Shown here one piece after another: positions 11,918-61,684 of a stretch of 64,000 nt of DNA. Both the position numbers and the translations under genes were made by a program. This stretch comes from Carpediemonas membranifera BICM (taxonomy: Eukaryota; Protista; Fornicata): assembly GCA_019828565.1 (NCBI GenBank), contig JAHDYR010000067.1:464244-528243 (forward strand), in the 5' to 3' direction. Below the pieces are notes generated by a model. The model worked only from the letters and a program-made list of their open reading frames with translations, was not told the origin of the DNA and did not search any database. Positions within the stretch are counted from its first letter, which is position 1, and every line of letters starts with the position of its first letter.

Positions 11918-12667
11918 GGGCGACGAGTGGTCTGGCGTGAAGCAGCGGTGTCTGGCCTCGCGTGTGCTCTCGCGCGACCCATTCTGGGCAACAACGGCAG
12001 GCGGCATTTAGAGGTGCGATGATGTTGGTTAGCGATGACGTCGGAGAGTAGTCTGAATTGTGTTTCTACTGGGAGAGCCCAGCAGCCCAGTGCATTTGAC
12101 TGATAGATACTTCTGCAGGCTTCCAGCGCCGCGAGCTCTAAGCATCGGCCGGGGCCTCATCTGCCAACGAGCAAGCGGCGGTGCTTTTCTAGTGCCTGCA
12201 GCGGCGCTTTCGTGCCGACTGCCTCTCGCAGCTCACTGTCGAACTCAGACTTTCCCGAGCGCTCGCGCGCCCTGGCACGGGCTTCCGACGTCGTGTTGAT
12301 GTTGTTTGAAAGATGGCGTATACCGTGTGTCTGAGTAGCCCCGATGCGTTAAGGCATTCGCAGCCGTGGAGTTCACGTGCGTTTCGCTAAGTGCCTCGCC
12401 GCGCAGCCCATGCAGGGGCTGAAGGCAGAAGCATTAGCGAGCGCCGAAGCATGAGAACGAGCAAGACGCTCAGTTCGCGGCGCTTCGGCCCTCTGACTTT
12501 TTTGCGTGAAAAAAGCTGCAAAAGTGCGCGGCCGGTTTCGCGCGACTGACACCGCCCGGGGCCTCTGGCCGACAGTCTGCCCTGGGCTGCAGCATCTCCT
12601 TGGTCGCTCAACCTTCTCTGGTCATGCGAGGACAGCGTCCTGCCTGAGACATGCAAGGAGCTCACTG
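11918..12667 (-). repeat. ~750 bp RNase P RNA-containing repeat unit, copy 1
   Basis: Reverse complement of 15046-15794 and near-identical to the copies at 41522 and 60942. Confidence 0.95.
12037..12292 (-). ncRNA. RPR1: Nuclear RNase P RNA, copy 1 (variant)
   Basis: P1 GACGTCGGA/TCCGACGTC, CR-I GGGAAAGTCTGAG, CR-V ACACAATTCAGACTA. Has a P2 3'-strand mismatch (GCACTGG) and a 1-nt insertion relative to the other copies. Confidence 0.9.
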
Positions 12668-13474
12668 CCGCGCTTCTGCAATCCCAGCGGCGACAGATGT
12701 TGCGTTGCGGTGTTCCGTACTCAGGTGGGTCGTGTAGGGGCGACGAACCAACCGTCAAGGTTGGTCAAATGATTGGATCAATTCGGCTGGCCACAATTTG
12801 GTTTCGCCGCCACAGCATGACGTAAATATTCTTCCCCCCGTTGCTTTATGGAACAGTGGCGCAGCGGCGTAGCTCGCTCTTGTGTTGTCTGGTTCCGCAG
12901 GGGACTGGAATGTTTACAGGGTTCGCAGCCAGCCTTAGCAGTGAGTGGACCGACCACCATACTCACCCTACCCTACACAGATCTCAGCGTATCCTCCCGT
13001 CCAGTGGTCCTCGGACATTTATTACGTGCATCAGCCCCACACTTCTCGGCCTGGGTGGTGCAAGTTCAGGATCCAGCGCGCCCTGCTGCAGCTGCCATGT
13101 GCCAATGGATTCATTTCAGCCACTCATTTTCCTGAAAGAGACAGCGGCCATGGCCAGACTCCCTGTCACACCCGCAGTCGCCCAGAGGCTTGACCGGAAG
13201 GACTGACATAGCCATGAAGACAGCGCCAGCGCAATAAACGAGCTAAGCAGTGTAATGATGACGCGAAACGTCGCGAAGATGGCATCATAGCTTCCGGTGT
13301 GGGTGGTGAGGGAGGCCCAGCGAGCGGTGACCATTCCCTTTGACATTGGTTGTCAATCAATTTGTCGCCGCTATGGTCGCGCCTCGCGGCTGCTGTGCGA
13401 CTCCGCGGTGAGTGGTGTCGGCGGTCGGCGAGTCGGCAGTCAGAATTTGGGCACCGAACTGAGCGCTGAAACCA

Positions 13475-15031
13475 ATGAACAGCACTAGTTCCTCGCCATC
13501 TGCCATCAGAGATGCGCTGATCACCGCATTCCGCGCCTCGCTTGTTGCAACGGCCTCCATCTCTGGGGACATCCCATCCTTGATCCAGTGCGCCTACTCC
13601 AGGCACTTCAAGAAGCCTCCTCGCCACGCTCTCAGAGATCCCCCCTCTCGAACCAACCGCGCAAGCCCTCCTCGACCGCGCCCGCTCGATCCTCACCAGC
13701 GGCCCCCCGCTGTCAATGAACGTTGAGCTCGCGGATGGCGAGGAGCTCCCGGTCGCCATGCACACGCTGAACCAGGGCGCGGTGTGGGCGTGTCTGGTGG
13801 GTGGCGGGGCCAACCCCGACCTCGAGGACAGGGTGCTGGAGGAGGCTCAAGAGGAGTGGCCGCACAATCCCGAGATGCACGACAAGATCCGCAAGGCTCT
13901 CGCCCCTGAGGCCAAGTGCCTCTGGTTCCTCTGCCGCAAGTTCTTCTTCTCGCTGAATGTGGCAGAGAAGGACGGCGAGTGCTATCAGCACGCTTGGTCC
14001 TACATATTTTATCACCACCGCATGTACATGGGCCGCCTCTTCATGCTCGGCACTGCCAATCACACCGCCTTCACCAGGGCCAGGATGCCCAGGGCCCTCG
14101 AGGTCTATAGCAACAGCAACGGCTTCACCCACATCGCCAGGACGCCCAAGGGTCTGTGGGGCTGGGGGATAGCGGTCATGGCCAGCTGGGGTTCAAGTCG
14201 TCTAAGGTCGCCCCGACCCGCCTCACCTTCCCCGCCTGCCCCAAGGTCGCCGAGCTCGAGGCCAGCCTGCCCCCCTGGGAGAAGCACTGGATGGTGACAG
14301 ATGTGTCGCTGATTTGTGATCGGACGTTCATCCTCTCTTCGGTCGGCACTTTCACGGCCGGTGGACATCCAGAATAGTTCAGAGGCCATGTCCAGGGATA
14401 CAACCGACTGCTATTCCACCCAGTCGCTGTGCCCGCTGGCTTTGTCCCAGATCACATCATTCATGTGGGAAGTTTATTTATCGCGACTGTCATCCTCTCC
14501 ATGGGCGATCGGCAGGTGATCAGCGGGAGAAACGATTATGGCCAGCTGGGACTCGGGCACGGCAATGGTTTGTCTGGATTCGTTGACCTGCCCTTCTGGG
14601 TCGACCGGATCATAACAAGCAGCTTATTCTTCGTCTTCCTCAGTGGCCGCCAGCTGCTCTTCACTGGCAAAGTTCCCATCCATATCGCCCAGTCGGGCCT
14701 GCTGCCTGGTTTCAGCGAGGATGACTTCTGCATCACAGCCACCCCGCTCCGGTTCCCAGAGAGGGTCAAGGGGTTCTGGTGTGACGATTATCAGATCGTC
14801 TGGGTGACCGAGGGTGCCACCCACTTCTTCCACCATGGGAAGCTTACCGTGGTTCCTATTGAGGCGACAGCGTTCAGTGAAGACCTGTACATTCGCTTCT
14901 GCGACTCAACCGGCCAGTGGTTCAGGGTGGTGGGTGAGTCAGATGGGGTGGCTGAGCTGGTCGAGTGCGAGGCGCCCAGAAGGCCGAGAGACATCATTCC
15001 CGTCGATTTCGACCCAAGCCCTCAATCATAA
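13475..15031 (+). pseudogene. RCC1-like repeat family gene, copy 3 (disrupted)
   Basis: Same family. Frameshift near 14168 and TAG at 14375-14377; both lesions are shared with copy 1. Confidence 0.75.
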
Positions 15032-15045
15032 ACGTTCTGAAGCGA

Positions 15046-15794
15046 CAGTGAGCTCCTTGCATGTCTCAGGCAGGACGCTGTCCTCGCATGACCAGAGAAG
15101 GTTGAGCGACCAAGGAGATGCTGCAGCCCAGGGCAGACTGTCGGCCAGAGGCCCCGGGCGGTGTCAGTCGCGCGAAACCGGCCGCGCACTTTTGCAGCTT
15201 TTTTCACGCAAAAAAGTCAGAGGGCCGAAGCGCCGCGAACTGAGCGTCTTGCTCGTTCTCATGCTTCGGCGCTCGCTAATGCTTCTGCCTTCAGCCCCTG
15301 CATGGGCTGCGCGGCGAGGCACTTAGCGAAACGCACGTGAACTCCACGGCTGCGAATGCCTTAACGCATCGGGGCTACTCAGACACACGGTATACGCCAT
15401 CTTTCAAACAACATCAACACGACGTCGGAAGCCCGTGCCAGGGCGCGCGAGCGCTCGGGAAGGTCTGAGTTCGACAGTGAGCTGCGAGAGGCAGTCGGCA
15501 CGAAAGCGCCGCTGCAGGCACTAGAAAGCACCGCCGCTTGCTCGTTGGCAGATGAGGCCCCGGCCGATGCTTAGAGCTCGCGGCGCTGGAAGCCTGCAGA
15601 AGTATCTATCAGTCAAATGCACGGGGCTGCTGGGCTCTCCCAGTAGAAACACAATTCAGACTACTCTCCGACGTCATCGCTAACCAACATCATCGCACCT
15701 CTAAATGCCGCCTGCCGTTGTTGCCCAGAATGGGTCGCGCGAGAGCACACGCGAGGCCAGACACCGCTGCTTCACGCCAGACCACTCGTCGCCC
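15046..15794 (+). repeat. RNase P RNA-containing repeat unit, copy 2 (empty-site version for both element A and the LINE)
   Basis: Contains uninterrupted CAGTGAGCTCCTTGCA and AGAGGGCCGAAG, the sites occupied by retroelements in copies 4 and 3. Confidence 0.95.
15421..15675 (+). ncRNA. RPR1: Nuclear RNase P RNA, copy 2
   Basis: CR-I GGGAAGGTCTGAG (15457-15469) and CR-V CAATTCAGACTACTCTCC match the human H1 RNA motifs as I recall them and form P4. P1 GACGTCGGA/TCCGACGTC; P2 CCCGTGC/GCACGGG; P9-like CGGCAC-GAAA-GCGCCG; P10/11 CTGCAGGC/GCCTGCAG; CR-II AGAA, CR-III TGGAA, CR-IV AGTCAAAT; P19 CTGCTGGG/CCCAGTAG. Confidence 0.95.
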
Positions 15795-15916: not shown

Positions 15917-18900
15917 ATGATCAACATCGGTATCGATCTCGGCGGTGTAGGTGCTCACATTGGTTTGTATCATCCAATTCTCAGCTTATTCAGTAATCTC
16001 CGATGAGAATGGCTCCATCGTTTATCAGGCCTCCAAAGCTCATCACGGAAACGCTCTCCCCGCTCTTTCTGAGCTGATTCCACCGGAATTCCTCAACCAG
16101 AACGCAGTTGTTGGTGTTACCGGCCTTCTCGCCCCCATCATCTGCTCCAAGCTCGGGCTTGAGCCCATCGATACCGTGAACTGCACTGTTCGTGGCCTCC
16201 AGTCTCTCACGGACAAGAAGTTCGACCACATCATTGACATCGGTGGCACTTCCCTTTCCCTTGTTTCCCTTGAGAAGCAGAACGAGTTTAAGTCTTTCTC
16301 TTGCAACACCCTTTGCGCCGCCGGTACTGGCTCCTTCCTTGACGAGCAGGCCTCCCGTCTCGGCATCTCCTACGATAAGATCGAGGCCAAGGACACCTAC
16401 GAGCAGCCCCCCTCTATCGCCGCGCGTTGCGCAGTTTTCGCCAAGTCTGATCTCATCCACCGTCAGCAGCAGGGCTACACGCCCGAGCAGTGCTGGTCCG
16501 GCCTCTGCCGCGGTATGACCAAGACCATCGTCTCTACCCTCTTCAAGGGTCGCCGTTCCGCTGGCGAGATCGTCGCCATCGGTGGTGTCGCCCTCAACAA
16601 CGAGGTTGTCTACTGGCTCAACGGCGAGTGCGAGGGCAACGTCCAGACCCTCCCCAGCACCCAGGCTGACCTCATCACCGCCATCGGTGCGATGAAGCTC
16701 GCCAAGGAGCGCACCCTCCCCGCTGTCTCCATCACTGAGACCACCCTCACCGAGCAGGACCTCCTCGACAAGGACAAGTACCACCTCCGCAAGCCCCTCG
16801 TCCTCAACAAGACCCACTACCCCTCTTTCGACTGCTTCGAGGACTGGATCAACGAGGATCGCTCCGAGATCCGCGTCCTCTGTGACCTCAACCAGGTCAA
16901 GTCCGAGGCTGGCGAGATCATCGCCTACTGCGGTCTCGATATCGGCTCCACCTCTACCAAGGCGTTGCTCGTCAACGACAAGGAGGAGCCCATCCTCGAT
17001 ATTTACCGTAAGACCCGCGGTGACCCCCTTGGTGCCACCTCCCTTCTCTTCAAGGCCGTCCGCGAGGTCGCCGAGAAGTACGGTATCACCATCACTGTCA
17101 GCGGCTTCGGTACCACTGGTTCCGGCCGTAAGATCGTCGGCCAGGTCTGCGGTGCCGACTTTGTCGTCAACGAGATCACTGCTCACGTCACTGGCGCCAT
17201 GAAGGTTGACCCTACCATCGACACCATCTTCGAGATCGGTGGCCAGGATGCCAAGTACATCCACACGGTCAACGGCCGCCACCACAACTCTAACATGAAC
17301 TACGTGTGCGCTGCCGGTACAGGCTCCTTCGTCGAGGAGCTCGCCCGCTCCCTTGGCTTCGACCTCTTCACCCTCGGTGACGAGTGCCTCGGCGCCCAGC
17401 CCCCCGCCACGTCCGAGAGGTAAGTTCCCTTTCACTCACACTTACGTAGATGCACTGTCTTCATGCAGCAGGACGCCGCCCGCCTCCTCCGCGAGGGTGT
17501 GTCCAAGCGCGACGTCATGGCCGCCGTCATGTACTCCGTCGTCCGCAACTACCTCCTCAAGGTCGTTGGCTCCCGCTACTACTCCCGTAAGAAGGTCTTC
17601 TTCCAGGGCGCTACTGCCAAGAACAAGTCCCTTGTTGCCGCCTTCGAGAACCTCCTCGACGTCGAGGTTGTCGTCTCCCCTCTCTGCCACGTCATGGGCT
17701 CGTACGGTGTCGCCCTTCTCACGGCCCAGCGCCTCCAGAAGTCTGGCAACCAGACCACCTTCGTCGGCATTGACTTCAACTCCTCCCACGTCAAGCTCGT
17801 GAAGGAGAGCTGCACTTTCTGCAACAACTACTGCGAGATCACCTTCGCCGAGGTCGAGGGTCTCGAGAACCGCCCCTCCTGGGGCTACATGTGCGGCCGT
17901 GACCCCGAAGACAACAAGGTCCGCCGCTGCGACGAGTACAAGTGGTTCACCAAGAGAAACGGCATATTCCGCAAGAAGTACGCCCTGCCCGCTAGCCACA
18001 AGGCCGTCGAGCAGAAGAAGACGATCGGCATCAACCGCTGCCTGCTGACCTGGGAGTTCTACCCCCTCTACCGCGCCGTCTTCGAGCACCTTGGCTTCAA
18101 CGTCAAGCTCTCCCGCCCCACTGACCGCAACACCGTCGAGATGTCCTCCCAGTGGGTCGGCGCCGACTACTGCTTCCCCGCTAAGCTCGCCCACGGGCAC
18201 ACCCGTGACCTCCTGGACGACGCCGAGGTCGACTTCGTCTTCCTCCCCTACAGCACTGGCTCCTTCAGCTCTCCCCAGACTAACAACTCGTGCTTCTGCC
18301 CCTACAACACCGCCACGGCCTCTTTCATCAACTCGGCCATTTACCTCAACTCCACCAAGGCCGACACCGACGCTGCCCGCATCATCTCCCCCGTCATCGA
18401 CTTCCGCCAGACCCCCAAGACCATCGCCATGCGCATGGCTGAGGTCCTCACGCCCAAGCTCGGCGTCAGCGAGAAGGATATCCTCAACGCCCTCAACCAC
18501 GCCATGGACGTCTGGAGCAACTACCAGGAGGGCCTCCAGGGCATCGGCCAGCAGGCCCTCGCCGACCTCGAGGCTAACCCCGACGGAAAGCCCGGCATTG
18601 TCATCATCGGCCGCCCCTACAACGTCTACGACTCTGGCGCCAACCTCGACCTTCCCAAGAAGATTGCCATGCTCGGCTTCCCCGTGATCCCCATGGAGAC
18701 CCTGCCCCTCGACTCTGTCCAGCTCGACGCCGAGCACGCCAACATGTACTGGGCTTACGGCCGTAAGATCCTGCAGGCCGCCAAGTTCATCTCCCAGCAC
18801 GAGCGTCTGTACGGTGTCTACTTCACCAACTTCTGCTGCGGGCCTGACGCCTTCATCCAGACCTACGTCGAGCAGATCATGGGCCACAAGCCCATGCTGA

Positions 18901-20222
18901 TGCTCGAGCTCGATGAGCATGGTGCCGATGCCGGCTACATCACCCGTATCGAGGCCTTCGCCGACGTCCTTTCCCAGACCAACGTCATCACATGGAACGC
19001 CAAGCCCCTCGACGTCAAGCCCTTCGACAAGGAGACCACCCTCAAGGACCGCATCATGTGGATCCCCATCATCCAGCCTGTCTGTGCTGAGCTCACGGCC
19101 GCCGTCATCCGCGCCTCTGGCCAGGACTGCCGCGTGCTCCCCCCTGAAACCGGCGACGTTTACGACCTCGGCCGTTCCCTCACCCGTGGCACTGAGTGCG
19201 TGCCCTGCCCCACTGTGCTCGGTGGCTTCCTCAACGTCATGCGCACCTGGCCCGACCAGAGCCAGAAGCACGCCATCCTCATGACTGAGGCCCACGGCCC
19301 CTGCCGCTACGGCCAGTACCGTACCCTCCAGCGCGTTGTCCTCAACGAGCAGGGTTTCGAGGACGTCCCCATCGTCTACTGGTCGGCCCGCGACTCGTAC
19401 GCCGCCGCTGAGGGCTACTCTCGCCGCATCATCTTCCAGGCTGTCTGCACCGGCGACCTTCTCGTTAAGATGCGCAACCGCGCCGCTCCCTACACCCGCA
19501 CCCCCGCCGAGAAGCAGGAGGTCGAGGAGATGCTCGTTGAGTTCACCCGCCGTTGTGCTGACGCCTACGAGAACAACCAGCCTGCCCGCGTCAAGGACAT
19601 CATCCGTGAGGCTGCCCGCCGCTTCAAGGCCAAGATGGACCCCTCGATGCCCCGCAAGCCCGTCGTCGGCCTCGTTGGTGAGATTTACATCCGTACTAAC
19701 AAGTACCTCAACCGCGACCTCGTCGGCGCCATTGAGGCGTGCGGCGGTGAGGCCTGGGCCGCTCCCATCGCCGAGTGGGTGCTCTACGCCGCCGCCATGG
19801 AGGGCTACAAGGGCAAGCGCAACAAGACCGCCATCATGGGCCGCGCTGGCACCTACATCAAGAACCTCTTCCTCTCCAAGGACTTCAAGGACATCTACGC
19901 TGCCGGTGCCGAGCTGATCTCCGACTCGCCCGAGTCTGACCCGCTCGAGACCATCAAGGAGGGCGCTGAGTACATGTCCCAGGACTTCGAGGGTGAGGCC
20001 CTCTGCACAGTCGGCCGCGCCGTCGAGTTTATCAAGCACGGCGCCGCCCTCGTCGTTAACGTCACCCCCTTCGGCTGCATGCCTGGCAACATCACAATGG
20101 GTGTTTTTGAACGCGTTCAGGAGGAGCACAACGCCTCTATCGTGAACATGGTTTATGACGGCGACTCTGACATTAACGGGAAGATCAACGTCTTCATGTC
20201 CAACCTTCGCCAGCGCGAGTAA
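15917..20222 (+). CDS. Bacterial-type 2-hydroxyacyl-CoA dehydratase activator fusion (2x BadF/BadG/BcrA/BcrD ATPase + DUF2229-type domains), ~1414 aa; introns 15963-15993 and 17420-17449
   Basis: Splicing gives MINIGIDLGG...; DIGG, CAAGTGSF twice, ARCAVFAKSD, GLDIGSTSTK, EIGGQDAK, and SER|CTVFM restored across the 30-nt intron; CFPAKLAHGH, IGRPYN, FCCGPD, ELDEH, GPCRYGQY, PFGCMPG. Confidence 0.92.
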
Positions 20223-23555: not shown

Positions 23556-23660
23556 GCAGCCCAGGGCAGACTGTCGGCCAGAGGCCCCGGGCGGTGTCAG
23601 TCGCGCGAAACCGGCCGCGCACTTTTGCAGCTTTTTTCACGCAAAAAAGTCAGAGGGCCG
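23556..23660 (+). repeat. 5' part of RNase P repeat unit copy 3 (continues at 41522-42093 after element A)
   Basis: Matches 15123-15227; the sequence resumes after the GGCCG duplication at 41522. Confidence 0.95.
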
Positions 23661-23741
23661 TGTAGTCTCAGTAGACTTTCGAGTGATCGGGGGTGTGCAC
23701 TTTAATGATCGCTACATTCCCCTCCAGAGGCCGAACCGGCA

Positions 23742-28375: not shown

Positions 28376-28417
28376 ATCTGATGACTTGACGCTGGAGCGA
28401 TTAGATGTGGTGAAGAT

Positions 28418-37099: not shown

Positions 37100-37103
37100 A
37101 CGG

Positions 37104-40637: not shown

Positions 40638-40642
40638 GGAGG

Positions 40643-50200: not shown

Positions 50201-51054
50201 ATCACGGATGAACCAGCAGAAAGAGGGAAGAGGCGAGTGGGCACCTTGAGGAGCGCCTCCTGGATAGGCAAACTCGCCCTGGCGGGCTCAGGCGTGGAAC
50301 ACCCAAAAGGGGGGAAGCCATGGGACACGCTGAACTGTGTTTTCCCGGAAGGCGCCAGCACTAACGCCAAGAACAGACTGAGGACCGAGAGGAAGCAGGC
50401 GCTTCGAACAAAGGTGAGACGAAGGGCTACTGAACTCGCCAAGATGCTCCACAGGAGGACGGAGGTCTACCTGCCGAATGGCGGCATAGGGGGCCTATAT
50501 GGCCCTCCACGCGAGCAAATTGTCACTGAACAACCGCAAAGTAGCAGGACAGAGCGAACAGAGCCCGGGCCCCCTCCAACTAAGAGCTGTGCCCCCCCAT
50601 ACCCCCAACCCATCAGCCAAGACCCGCCAGGTCAGACAGGTGGACCAAGAGGACCTGCAGCCCAAAAAGAGCACGACAGGAGGACACCGACCTGGGCAGA
50701 GGCATAGCGGCCCTGCTGGACCAAGCCATGGCCCGGCGAGAAGCAGAGGTCAGACAACAGCTGGAAGAAGCTGCAGCCAGAACCATCAACGAGCTCAAGG
50801 CCAAAAGCCAGGAGCTGGAGGAAGAACGGGAAGCCCGGAGAGCAGCCCAAGCTGCGTTGGACGAGATGCGGAAGGACCTCAGGAAGACAACGGAGAAGTG
50901 CTCGTCTCTAACCGAAGAGAACGAGGACTTACTCAGCCGCGCGGCCCGACTCTCGGCAACCAACGAAGCCCTCAGCTTCACCCTAGCAGCCAAGATGGAT
51001 AACTTCAGGTCTGACCTGAGAAGGAAGAGAGGCGAGGAGAAGGAAGGAGAGTAG
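47206..51054 (+). CDS. LINE ORF1 region (overlapping ORFs 47206-48483, 48113-50707, 50728-51054) with a DEDDh/zinc exonuclease-like domain and a C-terminal coiled coil
   Basis: VDFEEG, CEGAA, HYIHG, AKGVEAE, CPYH...HCALAD; terminal coiled coil. The ORFs are probably one protein broken by frameshifts near 48160 and 50665. True start unresolved. Confidence 0.6.
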
Positions 51055-51627
51055 AAACAATCATAAGTAAGAGGTGCAGAGGGTAGTGTGATATAAGTCT
51101 GAGCTAAAAGTGTATATACTGAACCAGCATGTATGGCCAGGCTGTGACTAGTAGGGCCTTAAAGTCCAAATGGACACCGGCGAACCATTCCGGCGGGAGC
51201 AAAAATGCAACACATTCTTTTTTCAACAAACCCCTGTGCCCCACAGGGGCCGGGGGCAGGGTTACCAAAAGGTAAAAAGAGCCCTGCCTGTCCGGCAGGC
51301 TGTAACTCCAGCCTTGGGAGGGGCAACAACCACTGTCGCTCCCACCTAAGCTCGTTAGGTAATGGTCCTGCCATGCGGCGAGGAAGGAAGCTAAGCGGAG
51401 ACCGGCAGCAATGCCGACAAGCATCGTGAGGCCCCGACTGTGAAAGGGAATGGTATGCCCTAGGCCGGGAACTAAGGGAATACAGGCACAAGCCTGCCCA
51501 AAAGGAAACGACTGCTCGGTTAGAGGCCTCAGCAACCCACCAAAAGGTACGCCCAAAAGGGAATGTCTACAAAGAGCAGATTAGTGCGCGCAGGGTAACT
51601 CCCGCAGTTTATGTCAGAACAACCTGA

Positions 51628-54600
51628 ATGAGAATAATATCGCTAAACAGCGAAGGGCACCTAGCGGGCGCAAACGATTACAGCGGATCCATAGCTTTAT
51701 CCATCCGCAAGAGGATAAGGACTGATGCGATCCTCCTCCAGGAAACCAAGCGGTACGGTAATACCACCATCCCTTGCTGGGTAGATCTCCAGTACGCCTG
51801 TGCAGGAGAGGTCAAGCCATTAGAGGCAACGCGCAAGCGACCCACAAAGGGACTGGCCACACTGATTAGCCCGCACTCCAAAGCGGAATGGGACGTAGGC
51901 GTGTCCGACGGGACGAACCCACGAATCCAAGTAAGCATCCTCAAAGCATCGAGGGCCACGGCAGTCATCAATATCTACGCTCCCGATAGTGGATGTGCAC
52001 GACCCGATGTGCCCTTAACCTGCGGAATTCGTAAAACAGTCTTTATCATATTTCTGGGCCCTAGCACGGCACAGTATCGATACTGCCGATTCAAATGAAG
52101 ACTCTTACAATTGACACCCCGTTCGCCGTCGAGAGAGCACTCCAGGAGTACCTCTCGGCGATGCCCCACGAGAAGAATCCAATTTCGTTCTTTAGGGCAT
52201 TGTCCCCCGAGACAACAGAAAAACTTCGCGCCCAGTGGCGCCCAACCACTCTTTTTGACACTTTCGAGGACCTACAACGAACCGTTCTGTCCGATTCCGA
52301 TGCTCGCCGCGCGGCGAACACAAGCTCTGCCAGTACTGCGGCACGAGCCCGTACAACGAAGACCGACAACCTCACCGCCATCTGGGTAGAGGAGGTACAG
52401 AAGACCATAAGAAAAGCCACGTTCGCCGCCTGTAGCGAGTGTGCAGCTAAGCACAAGGACCCCACCCTGACAGCAATGACCCGGGAGTGCCTTGAAGCTC
52501 AACATCCCCAGATACTGACTGACTGCGGCAAGAAGGCCCGCGACTTCTTCACCCAGCTGACCGACGACCACGACATCGCAAACGTCGAGACAGTCGCACG
52601 GCCTGGCAACCTGACCGGCCCGGACGGCGAAGACGTCTCGGTGGCGTTCGTGTACATGCCCCCAGTGCCCGAGGAGACCAAGCCCGCCCCCTCCTCGGCG
52701 GCTTGGCCAGTCTTCGATGGCGGGGACGTCTACGCTTTCCTCGCCAAGGAGGCGACCTCCATCGCCCCCTACCTCGCATATACCCTCTTGACTAGTACGG
52801 ACCCGGGCGCAAGAGCCAAGCTCCTCAAGGCAAAGCTCGACAACATCACGCTATACGGTCCGGAGCCCCGGCACCGAACGGCCGTCGAGAAGGCACGTAA
52901 GCTCATAAGCGCCCTCAACCCAGACATCAAGGACGTCCCCACCATCTCCGCAAAACTGCTCGAGCGGATCATTCGGGACTTCGCCACTAGAGGTTTCTCC
53001 AAAGAAGCCGAGGATGTATACGAAGAAGAGATTGAGGACTACTCCGACAAGATCAGCGAACTTCTCGACAAACTACGCGACTTGGATGTTGATCACGACG
53101 AGAACATCATTATCCCATGGCGTGCCTTCAGACTCGCCAGCCCACAAGCCGACAACAACGAGCAGGCGTCGGGCACTTCAGGCAGGAAGCCGCTCGCTCG
53201 CAGGCTCGATGGTCGCGATCCGTTCCAGCAGTTCAGGGACAAGACCAAGTTCCGCATGCCTCCTTCCCACACGAGATACTGCACACAGCATGGCTGGAAC
53301 CCGCACCACGAGACGAAGGACTGCAGGTTCCTCATCAGACGGGAGGCTTACAAGGCCCAAGAACGCCAGCCACAGACCGAGAAGCGTCAGGAACGCAGAC
53401 CCGAAGAGCGGCAAAAGCAGCCCGGCAACCGCGCACGCCCTGTGGCGCCCACCAGTCACCAACAGTCGGATCGCCGGGCCGGCCGCATGGACCTCCGCCC
53501 CTCGTCTACCCTGAAGAACCCCCGCCGCGTCGATGAGGTGTTTGACGCGGATGAAGCGTCTCATTCGGAGTTGGAGAACGAAGTCTACGAGATCGAGGAC
53601 ATCATACTCGACAAGGACCCGGTGAAGGTCCCGGCTGTTATCAACGGCCAGCACATGAACGTCAAGTTCGACATCGGCGCTTGCACGTCGGTCATATCAG
53701 CCCCTGCCCTCGCAGCGATCCCCGACGTGACCCTGATACCGACCTCAGTCGAACTTCTCGGCGCTGGGGACGAGATCATCTCCACTGGCAAAGCCGCCAA
53801 GGTCTCGCTGACCCTCCCCAGTGTCGACGGAAAGACCGTGACCACCACTGCATTGCTCATGGTCACGAAGGGCCAGAGGAAGAAGGTCCTCATTGGACGC
53901 GATTTGCTCCGCCGCCTCGGCTTCCTGCTGAACGACCGGCTACTAATACCGTCCGCTGACCCGATCGATGACGACGACGGCCTGGGACAGCACCCCTACC
54001 TCGACTCGACAACAGAAGAAGTCGACCCCGAGGAAGAGTGGCGCAAGGTTAAGCTGCCGACCGAAGAGAACCCGGAGCTGGCTGCCTGGCTGACCGACTT
54101 CCTTCGCGAGCGCAAGGCCGTGTTTGGCCCTCTACCTCCGGATGGCAGCAGGATGCCGCCACACGAGATCGTCGTCGATCCAAGCCGCCCTACACCCAGG
54201 GCCCGACCCAGGCCGTTGAAGGGTGACCCGGGAAACTCAGCCCTCGCGGAGATCGACAAGATGCTCAACCAGGGCGTGATCCGAGAGAGTCAAAGTCCGC
54301 ACTCTAGCCCGCACGTCATGGCAAAGAAGAAGAGCGGCGAAGACCGCTTCTGCATCGCTTACAACGTCTTGAACAACGCCACCATCGACGACCTGTACCC
54401 CACGCCGGACATCCGATCGTTTGTACACGAGGCGAGCGGATGCTCCGTGTTCGCGGCGCTCGACCTGCGCAGCGGATACTGGCAGCAGAACATGGCAACC
54501 GATAGCATCCCGCTCACCGCATTCACCGTCCCGGGCGGGCATTACGAGTTCTTACGTACACCATTCGGGCTGAAGAACGCCCCAGCAAAGTTCCAGCGAG

Positions 54601-57600
54601 CCATGGACGAGATGCTCGCTGGTATCGACGGTTCGAGAGCCTATATCGACGATATCTTTGCGTACGCCCGCTCCATTCAGGATTTCAAGTCGACCCTCAC
54701 CCAGATCTTCGACCAGTTGGAAGCTTACGATATCAAACTCCGCGCCGACAAGTGTGCCATTGGCATGAAGGAGGTTGAAGTCTGTGGGTTTATAGTCAAC
54801 GAGTCTGGCAGGTCGGTTTCCCCCTCACGTATCGCAGCCATCCAGGACCTCACACCCCCAACGACGACAACGGAGCTGCGCCGCACGCTAGGCAAGTTCA
54901 ACTATCTGTCAAACTATATCCCACACCTCGCCCACGCATCAGCCCCGCTCAACGCCCTCCTAAAGGGATCGCCGCAGAAGTCGGCCCCCCTCGATTGGAC
55001 TGCCACTGAGGACGAAGCATTCGCCCGTATGAAGACCCTAGTAGCCGAGCACACCGCCCTCGCGCTCCCAGACCTGAGTGCAAAGTGGACTCTCGAGACC
55101 GACGCATCGTCGACCGCCATCGGTGGTGTACTGTGGCAGGGCGAGGGTGACGAGAAGGTCCCACTCGCCTTCTACAGCAAGACCCTCGACGAGACCCAGC
55201 AACGGTGGTCCACGGTGGAACAGGAGCTTTTCGCCATTGTCTATTGTGTAACGCGACCAGAGTTTTCCCCCCTCTTCAAGCTGAAGCCGTTCGAGCTTCG
55301 CACGGACCATCGTAATCTGATATGGCTACTCAGGAAGACAGACGAGGACGGCACTAAGAAACTGACACGATGGCGACTCACCATGACAGAGTATCCGTAT
55401 AACGTCACACACATAGCTGGAGCGCAGAACCTCGTAGCCGACGCACTGTCGCGGCCATCATCTCAGCGCAAGAACGAGGTGCGCCGCTCGATCGACCACG
55501 TCACCACGACGCGCCAAGAGCAGATCACCAGGGCGCACGCCGGTGCACAGGGCCACGTCGGCCCAGACCAGACCATCGCCAATCTGAAGCAGTCCGGTGT
55601 CACGTGGCCAGGCATGTCGGATGACGTCCGCGCGACCTTACGCCAGTGTCCAATCTGTCGCAAGACAAAGCCAGCCCGCAAGGAGCCGATCAAGTGGCAC
55701 TCTACTCAGCGCATCCGCCCATTCGAGACGGTGCAGGTGGACACCATTGGCCCTTTGCCCGAGAGAGACGGTCTCAAGTACGTCATCACGGTGGTGGACG
55801 TGTTCTCGAAGTTCACCATATTGAAGCCCACACGGTCAACGAGCGCAGCCGAGGCAGCAGCCGCATTGCTGGAGATCTGGGCGACTTTCGGCGTCCCGGC
55901 CGAGCTCCAGTCTGACCAAGGTACACAGTTCAGGAATGCCCTAGTCGAGGAGATGAACGAGCGACTGAGCCTCAAGCACCGGTTCAGTACGGCATATCAT
56001 CCGGCCAGCAACGGCGTAGTCGAACGCCTGAATGGTACCGTCATGAGACGCTTAAGAGCGCTCCTGCTGGACGCCCGCGACGACAACTGGCCCGCATACC
56101 TGCCCATCGCCCAGCACGTTATCAACGCCACCCGCCACTCCACCACAGGCCTCAGCCCCTTCGAACTATTGTTCGGACGCAAGTCAACCATGCTGCGCGT
56201 CGCGCCCGACGCCCTGACCAACGCAACCCAGATGCTCGAGCCGGGCTCAGTCGAAGCCGACGACATCGTCCGCTTCCAGGCCCACGTCACGTCGCTCCAA
56301 CAACTTGCCGCGATCAAGGTCAAAGCCTACGAGGTAAACAAGGCTGCAGGCTCCTCGGACAGCACACGGGCCTGGGAGAACGAAACCTACGTCCTGCTGA
56401 GATACCCGGGCAAGCCGCCGACCAAGCTACTCCCGCCTCTGCGCGGACCGCTCCGCATGGAGGGGAAGGGCGATCACCCCAACACCTACAAGGTGATGGA
56501 TCTCGTGTCGAAGTGCGTCGCCACAGTCCACGCAGACCGACTCGTCACATTCCACGCCGACGGCCTCACGGAGAAGGAGCTCGAGGAAATTGCCGCCTAC
56601 GAGCAAGATGAACAACCCGTGGAGGCAGTCGTAGGCCACCGTAAGAAGAAGAACGGCTCTCTGGAGCTACTGATCCGTTGGGAAGGCCTCACCCCCGACG
56701 AGGACTCATACATCCCCTATAATCGCTACTACGACCAGCTCGAGGCTATCGACAGTTATCTCGAGCTCAATCCTGGTCTCAAGCCGATGTTTGAGAGTGC
56801 TAAGAAGAAGTTCCGCAGGAGCGGTCGCCGTTAGTCGTGCGACACGCATTGGGAGGGAAGTGTGCCCTTAACCTGCGGAATTCGTAAAACAGTCTTTATC
56901 ATATTTCTGGGCCCTAGCACGGCACACCGAGATTGAGGAGTTCGACCGGATGCTAGAGCAAACCGTCGCGAACTATGAGGGGTGTGACATCATCATCATC
57001 GGGGACTGGAACAGGAGGCCAGGGAAACTCAGGCAAGCAACTGCGATGACCCTCCAGCGATGGAACCTCACCCCAATAGCACCAACTGCACCGACGTACG
57101 GGACTAACTCCCGAACGTCCACAATAGACTATGCAGCGGTAACAGGGGGTATCCAAAACCCGGTTGTTAGGGTAATAGACAAGACCACAATCGGGCACTG
57201 GGGGTCGGCACACAAAGCCATAGAGCTCACCTGGGATAGCAACCCGACAGGGAAACCAGAGATATCAAAGAGACTGGAAATCCCACGGATCGATACGTGG
57301 CTGGTCAAACCCAGGAGAACAGGGCCCAAGCTAGAAGAGTGGCCACCACTAGACAGCAAAATACCAGTGGACGAGATGGAGACTCTCATAAGGAAATGGT
57401 TGTCCACCGGGTTTGCTACCTCCAGAAGGCACCCATTCGCTGTAGAAAACCAGGAACGTATCCCTAGTGAGGTATGGGAACGGCTGGCCAAAGCCTCCAC
57501 CTGGAGCAAAACCGCCGCCAAAGATATCAAAAAGTCCCTCAACGGAGCACTGAGCAGATCATGGAGGACCTTCCAACATGACTGGAATGAGCAGGTTGAG

Positions 57601-59922
57601 GTTGGATCCCGTGATGGGTACAAAACGACAAAAAGGATCCTCGCAAACCAAGTGTTCTGCTTCTGGAACGAGAAGCAGCACGCCGGTCTCCCGGTGATGC
57701 TGAAGGCTGGAAACAAGATTCTAGCAAGGCAGAGGGAGATTGCAGACTCCCTCCAGGAACAGTACGCGAAGGTAAGCTCCGGGAAGGAACCCACCTGGGA
57801 ACCCACCTGGGAAACCGAGCCGGAAACGGACATGGAGGACCATCCGCCATCGCTTGAAGAAGTGACAGCGGCGGTCAAGTCCATAAGGAAGTCCTCGGCC
57901 GGAGGCCCGGACGGGATTATTGGAGATTGTCTGAGGGACCTCCCCGAGTCAGCGTACGAGGCAATCACAGTCCTGCTCGCGAAAGTATACGACAGCGGGA
58001 CCATGCCAACCACATGGAAGTATGCAGCGGTGTCGCCTATCCACAAGGTTGGGAAGGACAAGCTCACGCCCAGCTCGTACAGACCGATCTCCCTCACCCC
58101 CCTCCTATACAGAGCCTACGGGAGGATACTGAAATGGCGCCTCAGGCCGACGGTGGAGAAGTTCATCCCCAGAGAGCAAGTTGGGTTCATGAAAGGGAAA
58201 ACTGTAGTGGATCACATAGCCCTCCTAGCCCAACTCCACCAGTCCGGAAACCGTACCAGCGTCCTACTTGACATAGCAAAAGCATATGATACGGTCCCAA
58301 GGGACCTGCTGGTGAACAAGTTGACGCTCATGGGGGTACACCCAAGACTGACGAGGGCCATCCGAAATACACTTACAGAAACGTACATCTCGGTACGAGG
58401 GGCAAGCACATGGTCCAGAACAAACATGGGGGTCAAGCAAGGATGTGTGGTGGCCCCCACTCTGTTCATTCTCTTCACAGCTAACTGGCTAAGCCAGGCG
58501 GCACTGTACCTCCGGCATAGAGAGATCCCGGACCCCTGCCTCCCTCCAACGGACGATATGCCCCCAAACTGCCTCATTGCAATGTTTGTAGATGATACAA
58601 GCATCTCAGCCGAGACCCCGCAGCTCGCCGAAGAAGGCACAGACGCAGTGGTCAGGGTAATTGAAGCCCATGGACTCCAGACCAGCCCAGGCAAAAGTGT
58701 GGTGATAAGTACCGACGTAACTGCAGCGGTCAGCATCCAAGGAACTCCCACACTGGCGTCAGACTCAGCAAGGTATCTGGGACTCTGGCTAGCCAGCGGA
58801 AAGAATCCGTTGGCAGCATGCATCAAAATGAAGACGTCACAATCCCGGAAATACCTAGCCCTGGCAAGGAGAGCAGGGTGGACCAAAGGATCCACCCCGG
58901 CCGCCACCTCGGAATCCATCCTCAGAACCTTCCTCTGGACCAAGATCGAGTTCGGGATCGAGATCTGGGGCCAAGCGCCAGGGGGAAGAGCCATCTGGAA
59001 CAACTGGCGCGGCCTAATGGCAGGCACAGGACCAGGGGGAGGAGGAGCCGCCCGTGTACTAATGGGATGGATGTGCTGGGAGGCAGATATGGGGCAGAGA
59101 GCGGTGAGGCTCTATGAGTCTGCGCACGACCTGGACCGTCCGACCCCCCTAGGGAATCTGGACTGGGCGACAGCGGAGAGAGGATCGGTCTTACATCGCC
59201 TCTACCAATGGCGACGGAGCGTCCTCCAGGGCACACAGGAGGAGATGCCCGCCAGGGAAAGAGCAAAGAGGGGAGGCTGGACCCTCACAGCAGAAGAACT
59301 ACTGCACACCGGGAGCCGAACGGCCAAAGGGGTGGCAACAGTACTAGCCCCGGAAGTCATCCTCAGCATGCAGCAAGGGAAGAGACCCAAGAAACCAGGA
59401 ATGATCAAGGGTGAGATGATAACCAGACGGGAAGTCAAGAGAGTAATCATGACTGCATCCAACACACTCCCCTCCCCCAGCAACAGTGGCAGAAGCAGAG
59501 CCATACTTGGGAGCGCGATCGGCCAGCCCCAGGCCCTCCTGAGCAGGATCAAGCGGTGTTGCCCCCTATGTACCCTGGACTCAGAAGGTGACACCATTAC
59601 TCGCCTGTACACTGTCACCAGAACCGCGGCGGAAACCACCAAAATCCTCTCAGAATGGGCATACAACCAGCCCCTGGGAACACAAAGCCACATCATCTGC
59701 CAATGCAAGGCGGTAGAACGCCCAGAAGGATGGAATGACATCCTGGCGGAGGCGCATCTACGCACACAGTACCACGCCCTAAGGCAAGGGCAGGAGGCGG
59801 AGTGGTACAACTCAAGGCCAATCCTGGAAATGCTCTGGCTCCTCCGCAGCGAGGACCATACCGTCAGAGAGGGACTGCAGAACGGCAGACGTGCCCTTCT
59901 GAACCTCCGGAAAGACGGGTAA
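51628..59922 (+). CDS. LINE ORF2 (APE endonuclease + RT + Cys/His C-terminus, ~1123 aa), interrupted by element E
   Basis: MRIISLN, LLQET, INIYAP|...GDWN, TIDY, SAHKAI; GPDGI, YRPISL, QVGF, LDIAKAYDTV, GVKQG, FVDD, YLG. Removing 52008-56930 restores YAPDSGCARPEIEEFDRMLEQ in frame. Confidence 0.95.
52008..56926 (+). mobile_element. Ty3/gypsy chromovirus E (4919 bp) nested in the LINE endonuclease domain
   Basis: Identical 66-bp TGTGCC...GGCACA LTRs at 52008-52073 and 56861-56926; 4-bp TSD CCGA; PPT GGGAGGGAAG. Confidence 0.97.
52095..56834 (+). CDS. Element E single-ORF Gag-Pol polyprotein (1579 aa)
   Basis: CTQHGWNPHHETKDC knuckle, FDIGA protease motif, LDLRSGYWQ, YIDD, TDAS, D-D-E, chromodomain LIRWEGLTPDEDSY. 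Confidence 0.96.
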   Translation: MKTLTIDTPFAVERALQEYLSAMPHEKNPISFFRALSPETTEKLRAQWRPTTLFDTFEDLQRTVLSDSDARRAANTSSASTAARARTTKTDNLTAIWVEEVQKTIRKATFAACSECAAKHKDPTLTAMTRECLEAQHPQILTDCGKKARDFFTQLTDDHDIANVETVARPGNLTGPDGEDVSVAFVYMPPVPEETKPAPSSAAWPVFDGGDVYAFLAKEATSIAPYLAYTLLTSTDPGARAKLLKAKLDNITLYGPEPRHRTAVEKARKLISALNPDIKDVPTISAKLLERIIRDFATRGFSKEAEDVYEEEIEDYSDKISELLDKLRDLDVDHDENIIIPWRAFRLASPQADNNEQASGTSGRKPLARRLDGRDPFQQFRDKTKFRMPPSHTRYCTQHGWNPHHETKDCRFLIRREAYKAQERQPQTEKRQERRPEERQKQPGNRARPVAPTSHQQSDRRAGRMDLRPSSTLKNPRRVDEVFDADEASHSELENEVYEIEDIILDKDPVKVPAVINGQHMNVKFDIGACTSVISAPALAAIPDVTLIPTSVELLGAGDEIISTGKAAKVSLTLPSVDGKTVTTTALLMVTKGQRKKVLIGRDLLRRLGFLLNDRLLIPSADPIDDDDGLGQHPYLDSTTEEVDPEEEWRKVKLPTEENPELAAWLTDFLRERKAVFGPLPPDGSRMPPHEIVVDPSRPTPRARPRPLKGDPGNSALAEIDKMLNQGVIRESQSPHSSPHVMAKKKSGEDRFCIAYNVLNNATIDDLYPTPDIRSFVHEASGCSVFAALDLRSGYWQQNMATDSIPLTAFTVPGGHYEFLRTPFGLKNAPAKFQRAMDEMLAGIDGSRAYIDDIFAYARSIQDFKSTLTQIFDQLEAYDIKLRADKCAIGMKEVEVCGFIVNESGRSVSPSRIAAIQDLTPPTTTTELRRTLGKFNYLSNYIPHLAHASAPLNALLKGSPQKSAPLDWTATEDEAFARMKTLVAEHTALALPDLSAKWTLETDASSTAIGGVLWQGEGDEKVPLAFYSKTLDETQQRWSTVEQELFAIVYCVTRPEFSPLFKLKPFELRTDHRNLIWLLRKTDEDGTKKLTRWRLTMTEYPYNVTHIAGAQNLVADALSRPSSQRKNEVRRSIDHVTTTRQEQITRAHAGAQGHVGPDQTIANLKQSGVTWPGMSDDVRATLRQCPICRKTKPARKEPIKWHSTQRIRPFETVQVDTIGPLPERDGLKYVITVVDVFSKFTILKPTRSTSAAEAAAALLEIWATFGVPAELQSDQGTQFRNALVEEMNERLSLKHRFSTAYHPASNGVVERLNGTVMRRLRALLLDARDDNWPAYLPIAQHVINATRHSTTGLSPFELLFGRKSTMLRVAPDALTNATQMLEPGSVEADDIVRFQAHVTSLQQLAAIKVKAYEVNKAAGSSDSTRAWENETYVLLRYPGKPPTKLLPPLRGPLRMEGKGDHPNTYKVMDLVSKCVATVHADRLVTFHADGLTEKELEEIAAYEQDEQPVEAVVGHRKKKNGSLELLIRWEGLTPDEDSYIPYNRYYDQLEAIDSYLELNPGLKPMFESAKKKFRRSGRR

Positions 59923-60941
59923 GTACACCATCCCAGAATCCTATGACCTCTGGGACCAGGGTCAAACTGGGACCCAACCCCCGCCTCAACCGAAGCGGAG
60001 CGCTCCTGGGATCAGCGGGGGACGCAAGCCCACGTATCCCGGTAGCACCCAGCCGCGGAAGGGGGACTCAACCCGAACACTAATCTCGCTAACACACAAA
60101 CGCTCACCCATACTGGGAACGTAGACAACATTCAGCCGGCAGAACCGGCACACTCTTCACACGTATAAGAAATAACCCAGAGCCATAGGGCGGGGCACGT
60201 ATGCACATGTATACACGTACGTGCGAGGTATCGGGGCGCAGCAGCCAAACAGGAGGGTAACCATAAGGCAACAATACCACCTGGGCGGCACCTGGACCAA
60301 AACAGAGCTGCGCCGAACGGCCCGGCACCCAAAACTGGGAACCAGCCGGAAGCTAGGAAGAAGCCCTATAGGGAACAAATCCTTGAGGAGGGGATCCATG
60401 CCGGAACGGAAAGTGTGGAAGAGCCCGAACGCAGCCGTGAATCATATAGCTACCCAGCGATGATCGGTGGGTTTCATAACTGGCCCAATTGCGTGGTACG
60501 GCAAACGCCAAGCCCGAAACCGCTTCGGCGGGTGCCTGAAAAATTGCAAACTGGGTCGAATGGTATGGAGAACATATCCCTGAGAGGAGCCCTGTAGGGG
60601 AAACCGAGCAGAAGGCCCCGGTGGCGGGTGTGCAGGGCAAGGCCTTGCGGGTGCCAGGCAGAACGGGGGCCCGAAGGACCCCCAAGAGTAAGACCTGGGT
60701 TATCCCGACTTTGGGGGTATCGGGCCAGCCAGTTGATAGGTCAACATGCAAGGGACTACCCAGCCTTACCAGCTGGACCCTGACGGTGATGGTGCTAACG
60801 CCCCCAACGTAGTATCAGGCTCGCTCACGAAGGGAAGTCAACACGCTAAGGCGTTCCCGGGGACATGGGGTGGTGCAAACTGGTAATTCCCTGATTTACA
60901 CAGGTGTACAGGATACGTTAAATTTCTTTCTTTCTTTCTTT

Positions 60942-61684
60942 CAGTGAGCTCCTTGCATGTCTCAGGCAGGACGCTGTCCTCGCATGACCAGAGAAGGTTG
61001 AGCGACCAAGGAGATGCTGCAGCTCAGGGCAGACTGTCGGCCAGAGGCCCCGGGCGGTGTCAGTCGCGCGAAACCGGCCGCGCACTTTTGCAGCTTTTTT
61101 CACGCAAAAAAGTCAGAGGGCCGAAGCGCCGCGAACTGAGCGTCTTGCTCGTTCTCATGCTTCGGCGCTCGCTAATGCTTCTGCCTTCAGCCCCTGCATG
61201 GGCTGCGCGGCGAGGCACTTAGCGAAACGCACGTGAACTCCACGGCTGCGAATGCCTTAACGCATCGGGGCTACTCAGACACACGGTATACGCCATCTTT
61301 CAAACAACATCAACACGACGTCGGAAGCCCGTGCCAGGGCGCGCGAGCGCTCGGGAAGGTCTGAGTTCGACAGTGAGCTGCGAGAGGCAGTCGGCACGAA
61401 AGCGCCGCTGCAGGCACTAGAAAGCACCGCCGCTTGCTCGTTGACAGATGAGGCCCCGGCCGATGCTTAGAGCTCGCGGCGCTGGAAGCCTGCAGAAGTA
61501 TCTATCAGTCAAATGCGCGGGGCTGCTGGGCTCTCCCAGTAGAAACACAATTCAGACTACTCTCCGACGTCATCGCTAACCAACATCATCGCACCTCTAA
61601 ATGCCGCCTGCCGTTGTTGCCCAGGAGAATGGGTCGCGCGAGAGCACACGCGAGGCCAGACACCGCTGCTTCATGCCAGACCAC
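60942..61684 (+). repeat. RNase P RNA-containing repeat unit, copy 4
   Basis: Near-identical to 15046-15785. Confidence 0.95.
61317..61571 (+). ncRNA. RPR1: Nuclear RNase P RNA, copy 4
   Basis: All conserved regions present; the P2 3' strand GCGCGGG keeps pairing through a G-U wobble. Confidence 0.93.

What the first reader, a model, noticed from the sequence alone, without database searches (positions are those of the whole stretch)
12037..61571. Four dispersed copies of the RNase P ribozyme gene in 64 kb
Seen: complete ~255-nt RNase P RNAs at 12037-12292 (-), 15421-15675, 41720-41974 and 61317-61571, each inside the same ~750-bp unit. Copies differ at a few sites (CR-I GGAAG/GGAAA, P2 A-U to G-U, a P2 mismatch in copy 1). 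Known: this gene is usually single- or low-copy in eukaryotes. Inference: dosage amplification, passive co-duplication, or an RNase P-derived mobile unit.
Basis: partly seen in the sequence, partly recalled or inferred. Interest (0 to 1): 0.75.

Follow-up and report, generated by a model that had tools for sequence, protein, structure and literature searches.

The report
Duplicated RNase P genes, unknown partner
The four copies of the tRNA-cutting RNase P RNA gene are real and were likely copied passively with neighbouring genes in a rearrangement-prone stretch of a protist genome, which is fairly ordinary, but each copy lies behind a conserved folded RNA of unknown kind, and a fifth, diverged copy is transcribed as well.

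Summary
Confirmed: four complete nuclear RNase P RNA genes lie at the stated coordinates (RF00009, 84-88 bits). Named paralogs of neighbouring genes place the window in Carpediemonas membranifera. The '750-bp unit' is not a mobile element: its ends differ between copies, and it has no target-site duplication, tail or terminal repeats. The copies ride in larger near-identical tracts with ZIP and RCC1-like genes, and two tract ends fall inside RCC1-like paralogs. Two later retroelement insertions (33.5 kb) spread a ~16-kb cluster over 50 kb. Public RNA contigs bridge the 3' junctions of copy 4 and of copy 1/3. First, a fifth RNase P RNA type, about 12% diverged, keeps the fold through compensatory changes. 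Second, a ~180-nt structured RNA sits just upstream in both types, with two compensatory pairs, a 67-nt invariant block and no Rfam match; it fails the MRP and snoRNA tests. Multi-copy RNase P genes are published (Daphnia ten, Trichomonas two). Genome-wide copy number and catalytic activity were not testable. The scan's earlier notes held nothing on this locus.

The parts
12037..12292 (-). RNase P RNA gene, copy 1 (three private changes: CR-I G>A, extra A in CR-II, P2 mismatch)
   Evidence: RF00009 84.1 bits; differences; none of the three is in the RNA contigs
15421..15675 (+). RNase P RNA gene, copy 2
   Evidence: RF00009 88.0 bits
41720..41974 (+). RNase P RNA gene, copy 3
   Evidence: RF00009 85.6 bits
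61317..61571 (+). RNase P RNA gene, copy 4
   Evidence: RF00009 87.5 bits; its own 3' flank is bridged by an RNA contig, 61624-61783, 0 differences
15219..15402 (+). Upstream structured RNA (~180 nt, unclassified; ends inferred), copy 2
   Evidence: fold z = -3.24, 0 of 200 shuffles as good; a diverged, adapter-marked RNA contig covers it; no Rfam family near its cut-off
12311..12494 (-). Upstream structured RNA, copy 1
   Evidence: identical to copy 2
61115..61298 (+). Upstream structured RNA, copy 4
   Evidence: identical to copy 2 in this stretch; type-B differences mapped here
41522..41701 (+). Upstream structured RNA, copy 3, cut off from its first ~9 nt (23652-23660) by the LTR insertion
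23556..23660 (+). Stranded 5' piece of the copy 3 block (equals 15123-15227)
   Evidence: 105 of 105 identical
23661..41521 (.). Ty3/gypsy-type LTR element (56-bp LTRs, TG...CA, 5-bp target duplication) holding further nested LTR elements; inserted 199 bp upstream of copy 3
45283..60941 (+). LINE (RT and weak endonuclease match, TTTC tail), with an LTR element nested at 52008-56926; inserted 359 bp upstream of copy 4
   Evidence: 16-bp target-site duplication at 45267-45282 and 60942-60957; Pfam; relatives
8778..10448 (-). RCC1-like gene B (large Carpediemonas family)
13406..15032 (+). RCC1-like gene C, directly upstream of the copy 2 block
43564..45253 (+). RCC1-like gene D; the near-identical copy 1/3 tract ends at its 5' end, its 3' end matches C, and it lay directly upstream of copy 4 before the LINE inserted
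4170..5850 (+). RCC1-like gene A, with no RNase P gene beside it
10476..11603 (-). ZIP zinc transporter downstream of copy 1
   Evidence: PF02535
42430..43536 (+). ZIP zinc transporter downstream of copy 3, near-identical to the first
15918..20222 (+). Acyl-CoA dehydratase activase gene downstream of copy 2; a 98%-identical paralog lies on another contig

Best explanation
The window holds four real nuclear RNase P RNA genes that were likely multiplied passively, by recombination between copies of a large RCC1-like gene family, and each is likely transcribed as the second half of a two-part RNA behind a conserved ~180-nt folded RNA of unknown kind. Shown: the four genes, the shared tracts, the two insertions with their target-site duplications, and RNA contigs over the gene, the spacer and the upstream RNA. 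Inferred order of events: (1) a block RNase P - ZIP - RCC1-like gene was duplicated, with crossovers inside RCC1-like paralogs, and part of it inverted, giving four copies in about 16 kb; (2) an LTR element and a LINE then inserted in front of copies 3 and 4. Inferred expression: one promoter just upstream of about 15219 drives upstream RNA, a short spacer, RNase P RNA and a long trailer; with no oligo-T terminator this is likely Pol II-type, and the RNase P RNA would be cut out afterwards. A fifth gene elsewhere in the genome (type B, about 12% diverged) has the same two-part layout and is likely functional too. The upstream RNA is most likely a separate small RNA or a structured processing leader, not RNase MRP.
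For: Tracts: copies 1 and 3 share 3.7 kb, with 7 differences in ~2,100 columns over RNase P + ZIP and then 144 in ~1,530 inside the RCC1-like gene; genes C and D differ strongly in the middle but by 1 in 307 at the 3' end that leads into copies 2 and 4. The family has 139 hits at E<=0.001, many of the closest on the same 906-kb contig. The 16-bp and 5-bp target duplications show that the insertions came later; without them the span is 15,994 bp and copies 3 and 4 are 3,667 bp apart. RNA contigs bridge the copy 4 junction and the copy 1/3 junction into ZIP. No TTTT within 1.5 kb downstream of copies 1, 3 and 4; first at +760 for copy 2. Type B: 40 other letters and 5 gaps in 333 nt, with compensatory pairs in P9 (61393/61406) and P12 (61438/61471), P3 loop still GNRA, and no listed change in CR-I to CR-IV (helices read by hand). 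Upstream RNA: pairs 61192/61201 and 61170/61224 change C-G to U-A on both sides, and 61225-61291 is invariant. Diverged contigs can come from paralogs in this genome: the diverged activase contig carries the residues of P0279, on another contig.
Against: No genome was held, so the type-B locus was seen only as RNA contigs and the total copy number is unknown. Contigs are collapsed graphs: they cannot show a single transcript, a strand, an end or a level. The four runs are at most two samples, and X1 and X2 look like one data set. Copies 1 and 3 cannot be told apart at their shared junction. The 3' breakpoints and the 5' breakpoints of copies 1 and 3 do not lie in RCC1-like genes, so a second mechanism (template switching or deletion) is needed there. 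Some type-B changes break predicted pairs (P3 61339, P12 61429, upstream 61183), and 6 differences were not displayed, so CR-V and the 3' strand of P1 could not be checked. Covariation rests on two sequences only.
Confidence: 0.7

Rival explanations
1. Selection for RNase P dosage keeps the extra copies; neighbouring genes hitch-hike.
For: All four RNA genes are whole although breakpoints and insertions cluster within 110-380 bp of them; at least two type-A loci and type B appear in RNA contigs.
Against: The copies are too young (2-4 substitutions in 563-740 bp) for integrity to show selection. Copy 3 lost most of its upstream DNA and the start of the upstream RNA to an LTR insertion. ZIP, activase and RCC1-like genes are duplicated in the same stretch.
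Confidence: 0.12
2. Retroelements of this genome target the region upstream of the RNase P unit, as Ty3 and the Dictyostelium TRE elements target Pol III genes (recalled). This would add to, not replace, passive duplication.
For: Both top-level insertions in the window sit within 375 bp upstream of an RNase P gene; rough chance 0.2% over all non-TE DNA and 4% over non-genic DNA. The LTR target duplication lies about +5 to +9 from the inferred transcript start.
Against: Two events, a test made after the fact, and two unrelated element types at different distances. Redundant copies tolerate insertions. No Pol III terminator was found. Unchecked scan notes report LINEs on other pieces of this genome.
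Confidence: 0.2
3. The upstream RNA is a very divergent RNase MRP RNA, so that the unit is an MRP-plus-P tandem.
For: Its invariant 3' block holds a GGGGCUAC run like the 3' strand of MRP P4 (recalled consensus), preceded by an AGNNA motif; its length is near that of Giardia MRP (189 nt, PMC3228867), which consensus models also missed.
Against: No RF00030 hit at E<=10. No MRP-type CR-I and no GARAR in it. The AGNNA motif lies in a stem whose pair 61170/61224 covaries, and the only nearby CCCC is tied up in a second covarying hairpin.
Confidence: 0.08
4. The block is a non-autonomous mobile element derived from RNase P RNA (SINE-like or DNA element).
For: Four near-identical copies in both orientations; active-looking LINE and LTR elements nearby.
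Against: The ends differ in every copy. Direct and inverted repeats at the ends are 4-6 nt, the chance level being 4-6; no A or T run over 4. The sharp 5' end of copy 4 is a LINE insertion site. Upstream DNA and whole protein genes travel with it.
Confidence: 0.04
5. Some copies, or the differences between them, are assembly artefacts.
For: None of copy 1's three private changes appears in RNA contigs, and the main type-A contig joins copy 4's 3-nt insertion to the copy 1/3 flank, a combination that no assembled copy has. Bcheck judged 16 of 36 multi-hit metazoan cases to be assembly errors (PMC2996960).
Against: Each copy has different flanks; two carry insertions with exact target duplications; two different 3' junctions are bridged by RNA contigs. 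The odd contig may be a collapsed majority path. So single-letter differences are doubtful, but a single true locus is excluded.
Confidence: 0.06

Closest known systems
Nuclear RNase P RNA (Rfam RF00009); Giardia and Trichomonas RNase P RNAs (PMC3228867, PMC1950533)
   Same: Full-length model match, CR-I to CR-V, 8-nt CR-IV, compact size (255 nt; Giardia 237-246, Trichomonas 251), short P3 without internal loop as described for Giardia. Giardia RNase P RNA is also reported in a longer transcript with a second ncRNA (GlsR15).
   Different: At least five genes in two sequence types. The partner RNA is upstream and unclassified. The P8 loop is GAGAG, a motif that papers list as MRP-specific.
Multi-copy RNase P RNA genes: Daphnia pulex (ten), Tribolium and Heliconius (two each) (PMC4287351); Trichomonas vaginalis (two, PMC3228867); at least 20 metazoans (PMC2996960)
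   Same: Extra copies from local or segmental duplication; in crustaceans and insects no Pol III signals.
   Different: Here the copies are intergenic and clustered, with two types both in RNA contigs and compensatory changes between them. In the Bcheck cases only one copy had a promoter-like flank.
RNase MRP RNA (RF00030; PMC13184271)
   Same: The four genes share the GARAR P8 pentaloop; the upstream RNA has an MRP-like CR-V-type run.
   Different: The four genes have 8-nt CR-IV and CR-II/III, so they are P; the upstream RNA lacks CR-I and GARAR.
Dicistronic ncRNA precursors of Giardia (PMC3510501)
   Same: Two ncRNAs, or an ncRNA and a downstream ORF, in one precursor that is cut afterwards.
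   Different: A joint precursor is inferred here, not shown; the Giardia 12-nt processing motif was not tested.

Membership tests
Nuclear RNase P RNA (four copies) | Covariance-model match to RF00009 above the gathering score, full length | tested here: met
   84.1-88.0 bits against 28, model positions 1-301
Nuclear RNase P RNA (four copies) | CR-I/CR-V pseudoknot P4, CR-II and CR-III T-loop motifs, 8-nt CR-IV | tested here: met
   alignments; 8-nt CR-IV found; criteria from PMC13184271. Copy 1 has changes in CR-I and CR-II
Nuclear RNase P RNA (four copies) | Pre-tRNA cleavage and binding of Pop/Rpp proteins | not testable with these tools
   needs an assay
RNase MRP RNA (four copies) | P8 pentaloop GARAR | tested here: met
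   GAGAG loop closed by 5 pairs; seen in 2 of 42 other RNase P cores
RNase MRP RNA (four copies) | 6-nt CR-IV and absence of CR-II/III | tested here: not met
   CR-IV is 8 nt, CR-II/III present
RNase MRP RNA (upstream RNA) | CR-I able to form P4 with CR-V, GARAR loop, RF00030 match | tested here: not met
   no CR-I or GARAR motif (CR-I pattern recalled); no hit at E<=10
snoRNA / snRNA (upstream RNA) | C and D boxes, or H box plus ACA, or Sm site | tested here: not met
   no C box, no Sm site, no H box inside 15217-15402; ACA and one CTGA are present (motifs recalled). Divergent boxes cannot be excluded
snoRNA / snRNA (upstream RNA) | Complementarity to rRNA or snRNA targets | not tested
SINE or other non-autonomous mobile unit | Constant ends, target-site duplication, 3' tail or terminal inverted repeats | tested here: not met
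SINE or other non-autonomous mobile unit | Many dispersed copies genome-wide | not testable with these tools
   no genome held
Segmental duplication by recombination | Multi-gene near-identical tracts with variable ends, some ending in dispersed paralogs | tested here: met

The most novel reading that the evidence does not exclude
Carpediemonas runs two diverged, functional RNase P ribozymes, each made in one transcript behind an undescribed conserved ~180-nt RNA. The invariant 3' block of that RNA can pair 8 bp with catalytic CR-I (65 of 3000 shuffles) and may hold the precursor inactive until it is cut out. The P RNA's MRP-type GARAR loop raises the possibility that it also does MRP's job.
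Probability: 0.2. Interest if true: 0.7.

Novelty: new variant of a known kind. Interest (0 to 1): 0.42.

Why it matters
The copy number alone matters little: it follows from a duplication-prone region, and it has precedents. The useful parts are an annotated RNase P RNA for a free-living fornicate, a natural pair of diverged RNase P RNAs from one genome (a ready covariation and specificity test), and a candidate new structured RNA tied to RNase P expression. If the upstream RNA controls maturation, or if one P type covers MRP functions, it bears on how RNase P and MRP split in early eukaryotes.

Tried and rejected
Whole-genome census: no genome held. No tRNA genes in the window; tandem repeats irrelevant. 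I first read 15062-15390 as a ~330-nt MRP with the LINE at its 5' end; dropped, because contigs start near 15219-15230 and the covarying hairpins contradict it. Rfam E-value scans of the upstream RNA gave only chance-level hits. A metagenome scan with 24 nt of the invariant block found 0 matches. A gapped CR-I/CR-V pattern found 54 loci, none close to this organism and none with a significant match to the upstream RNA (best E 0.62); 20 of the 54 scanned with Rfam each held one RNase P gene and no other family. No RNA holder was listed on record as RNA. No contig covers 15042-15218, the copy 2 junction into the activase gene, or the LINE junction of copy 4; a hole proves nothing. Contig depths were not used to rank copies or genes. 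The LINE's RT has only distant relatives (22-38% identity), which gave no clade or target information. Literature: 'Carpediemonas' + 'RNase P' gave 1 unrelated paper; searches listed no paper on this locus, on an RNA upstream of RNase P in fornicates, or on RNase P-targeted retroelements (listings only). One review of P and MRP RNAs was not held. Supplements of PMC8516963 have no hit for RNase P, POP1 or POP4 (1 file unreadable); the supplement of PMC3228867 had no hit, and its figures with the MRP alignments could not be seen. Scan notes: nothing by place or sequence for this RNA; the word search returned unrelated notes.
Full report
Observation. Overlapping hits of one clan are reduced to the best, so this says that P beats MRP at these places. 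The copies differ from copy 2 by 2-4 substitutions and at most one indel in 563-740 bp.

Organism. The repeated 1.6-kb gene beside the copies has 139 relatives at E<=0.001; of the 120 listed, 118 are named Carpediemonas membranifera and 2 are unnamed, and many of the closest lie on the same 906-kb contig. It has weak RCC1 matches. The activase gene behind copy 2 matches a C. membranifera record at 100%. The species' genome paper (PMC8516963, passages seen) describes a likely haploid organism, a Nanopore assembly polished with short reads, and reliance on homologous recombination for repair and perhaps replication. I use it as background only.

The '750-bp unit' is not a discrete element. Self-comparison shows that copies 1 and 3 share 3.7 kb (RNase P, ZIP, RCC1-like gene), and that copies 2 and 4 share the 3' end of an RCC1-like gene upstream. 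The sharp 5' end of copy 4 is the 3' tail of a LINE: a 16-bp target-site duplication at 45267-45282 and 60942-60957 brackets 15.7 kb, with RT and endonuclease matches. The upstream part of copy 3 is split by a 17.9-kb nest of LTR elements with a 5-bp duplication, its 5' piece stranded at 23556-23660. The 3' flank of copy 4 is that of copy 2 with about 72 bp missing. Repeats at the block ends are 4-6 nt, the chance level, and there are no tails. Without the two insertions the four genes span 15,994 bp.

Mechanism of duplication (inferred). In the copy 1/3 tract, identity is about 99.7% through RNase P and ZIP (7 differences in ~2,100 columns) and drops to about 91% on entering the RCC1-like gene. 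Gene D matches gene C at 1 difference in 307 only over its last 300 bp. So the young tracts begin and end in RCC1-like paralogs, as expected from recombination or conversion between family members. The other breakpoints, close to the RNA gene, are not in such paralogs and need template switching or deletion.

Are the copies real and transcribed? Four public runs were laid, all as contigs. X1 and X2 lack a 30-nt intron of the activase gene, so they are RNA; their depths are nearly identical, so I count them once; X3 and X4 are the same sample as X1. One 813-nt contig runs from RNase P into the copy 1/3 flank and the start of ZIP. A 160-nt contig in X3 matches the private 3' flank of copy 4 with 0 differences. 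A single true locus is therefore excluded. Against taking single letters at face value: none of copy 1's three private changes appears, and the 813-nt contig joins copy 4's 3-nt insertion to the copy 1/3 flank. That may be a collapsed majority path, an assembly error or a further copy.

A fifth, diverged type. At 80% likeness, X1 and X2 hold a second RNase P contig with 40 other letters and 5 gaps in 333 nt, and X4 holds its 5' part. Read by hand against the helices: P9 (61393/61406) and P12 (61438/61471) change on both sides; P2 (61330) and P12 (61437) go to wobble pairs; P8 (61391) is strengthened; the P3 tetraloop stays GNRA; 61339 and 61429 break predicted pairs; no listed change falls in CR-I to CR-IV. 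Six differences were not displayed, and nothing is listed beyond 61517, so CR-V is unchecked. A second strain is less likely than a paralog, because ZIP and RCC1-like contigs match the window exactly while the diverged activase contig carries the residues of P0279, a paralog on a different contig.

An upstream RNA. Contigs in X1, X3 and X4 cover the ~200 nt before the RNase P gene, in the diverged type. In X3 and X4 they begin with a loose end whose first part also appears at an unrelated place (12793), so it is an adapter; that it marks an RNA 5' end, at about 15219 in copy 2 coordinates, is inference. The window version folds well (z = -3.24, 0 of 200 shuffles). Of six type-B changes at paired positions of its second hairpin, four form two compensatory pairs (61170/61224, 61192/61201), one gives a wobble pair and one breaks a pair. 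Positions 61225-61291 show no change, against about 12% elsewhere. Rfam finds nothing near a cut-off. It fails the motif tests for MRP, C/D, H/ACA and Sm RNAs. Eight bases of the invariant block (15377-15384) are complementary to CR-I of the RNase P RNA (65 of 3000 shuffles, one test among several). No TTTT follows the RNase P genes nearby, which fits read-through, Pol II-type transcription. I commit to a co-transcribed small RNA or processing leader; the joint precursor is inferred, since contigs cannot show it.

Retroelement targeting. Both top-level insertions lie within 375 bp upstream of an RNase P gene (rough chance 0.2-4%, after the fact). Two events do not establish targeting.

Comparison with what is known. 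Bcheck (PMC2996960, passages) reports multiple predictions in 36 metazoan genomes, 20 judged true duplications with one promoter-bearing copy each. PMC4287351 (passages) reports ten genes in Daphnia pulex, two or more in five crustaceans, and Pol II-dependent expression. PMC3228867 (passages and section 6) lists two RNase P and two MRP loci in Trichomonas vaginalis. PMC1950533 (passages) and PMC3510501 (passages) report an extended RNase P transcript and dicistronic ncRNA precursors in Giardia. PMC13184271 (passages) gives the P/MRP criteria used here; by them the four genes are P, with one MRP-type trait, the GAGAG P8 loop, seen in 2 of 42 other RNase P cores. My searches (listings only) found no paper on this locus or on the upstream RNA; the library lacks most subscription papers.

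Verdict. Real, and mostly explained by passive local duplication (0.7). Multi-copy RNase P genes are known. What is new is the pair of diverged, transcribed types and the unclassified upstream RNA. Interest 0.42; new variant of a known kind.

Noticed in passing
window 15482-15496 (P8 of each copy): The RNase P RNA has a GAGAG pentaloop on P8, which papers call MRP-specific; no listed change there in type B; 2 of 42 other RNase P cores show such a loop.
   Followed up: partly
window 23661-41521: Nest of at least four LTR elements with very short LTRs (56-131 bp), some with chromodomain integrases; the outer one and two inner ones show clear 4-5-bp target duplications.
   Followed up: partly
window 47092-50707: Long LINE ORF1-region frames with no Pfam match and a Cys/His cluster; scan notes on other pieces of this genome report Maelstrom-like domains in LINE ORF1, not tested here.
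   Followed up: no
window 15918-20222: Bacterial-type acyl-CoA dehydratase activase with a 30-nt spliced intron at 17421-17450; the best non-self hits are two unnamed proteins at 72% and then unnamed or bacterial proteins at 40-48%; the expressed contig matches the paralog on another contig.
   Followed up: partly
window 12793-13153: Adapter-marked RNA contig in the spacer between copy 1 and RCC1-like gene C, 0 differences; the spacer also holds a 75-bp relic of the ZIP/RCC1-like junction at 12978-13052.
   Followed up: no
window 11537-11918: Type-A RNase P contigs run on into the 5' end of the ZIP gene, so ZIP may be read from the RNase P promoter.
   Followed up: no
window 4170-5850, 13406-15032, 43564-45253: Three of the four RCC1-like copies have broken frames in this assembly; pseudogenes or sequencing errors.
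   Followed up: no
L041 311-524 and 712: A metagenome contig with a second CR-I motif 400 bp after an RNase P gene; possibly a tandem partial copy in another eukaryote.
   Followed up: no
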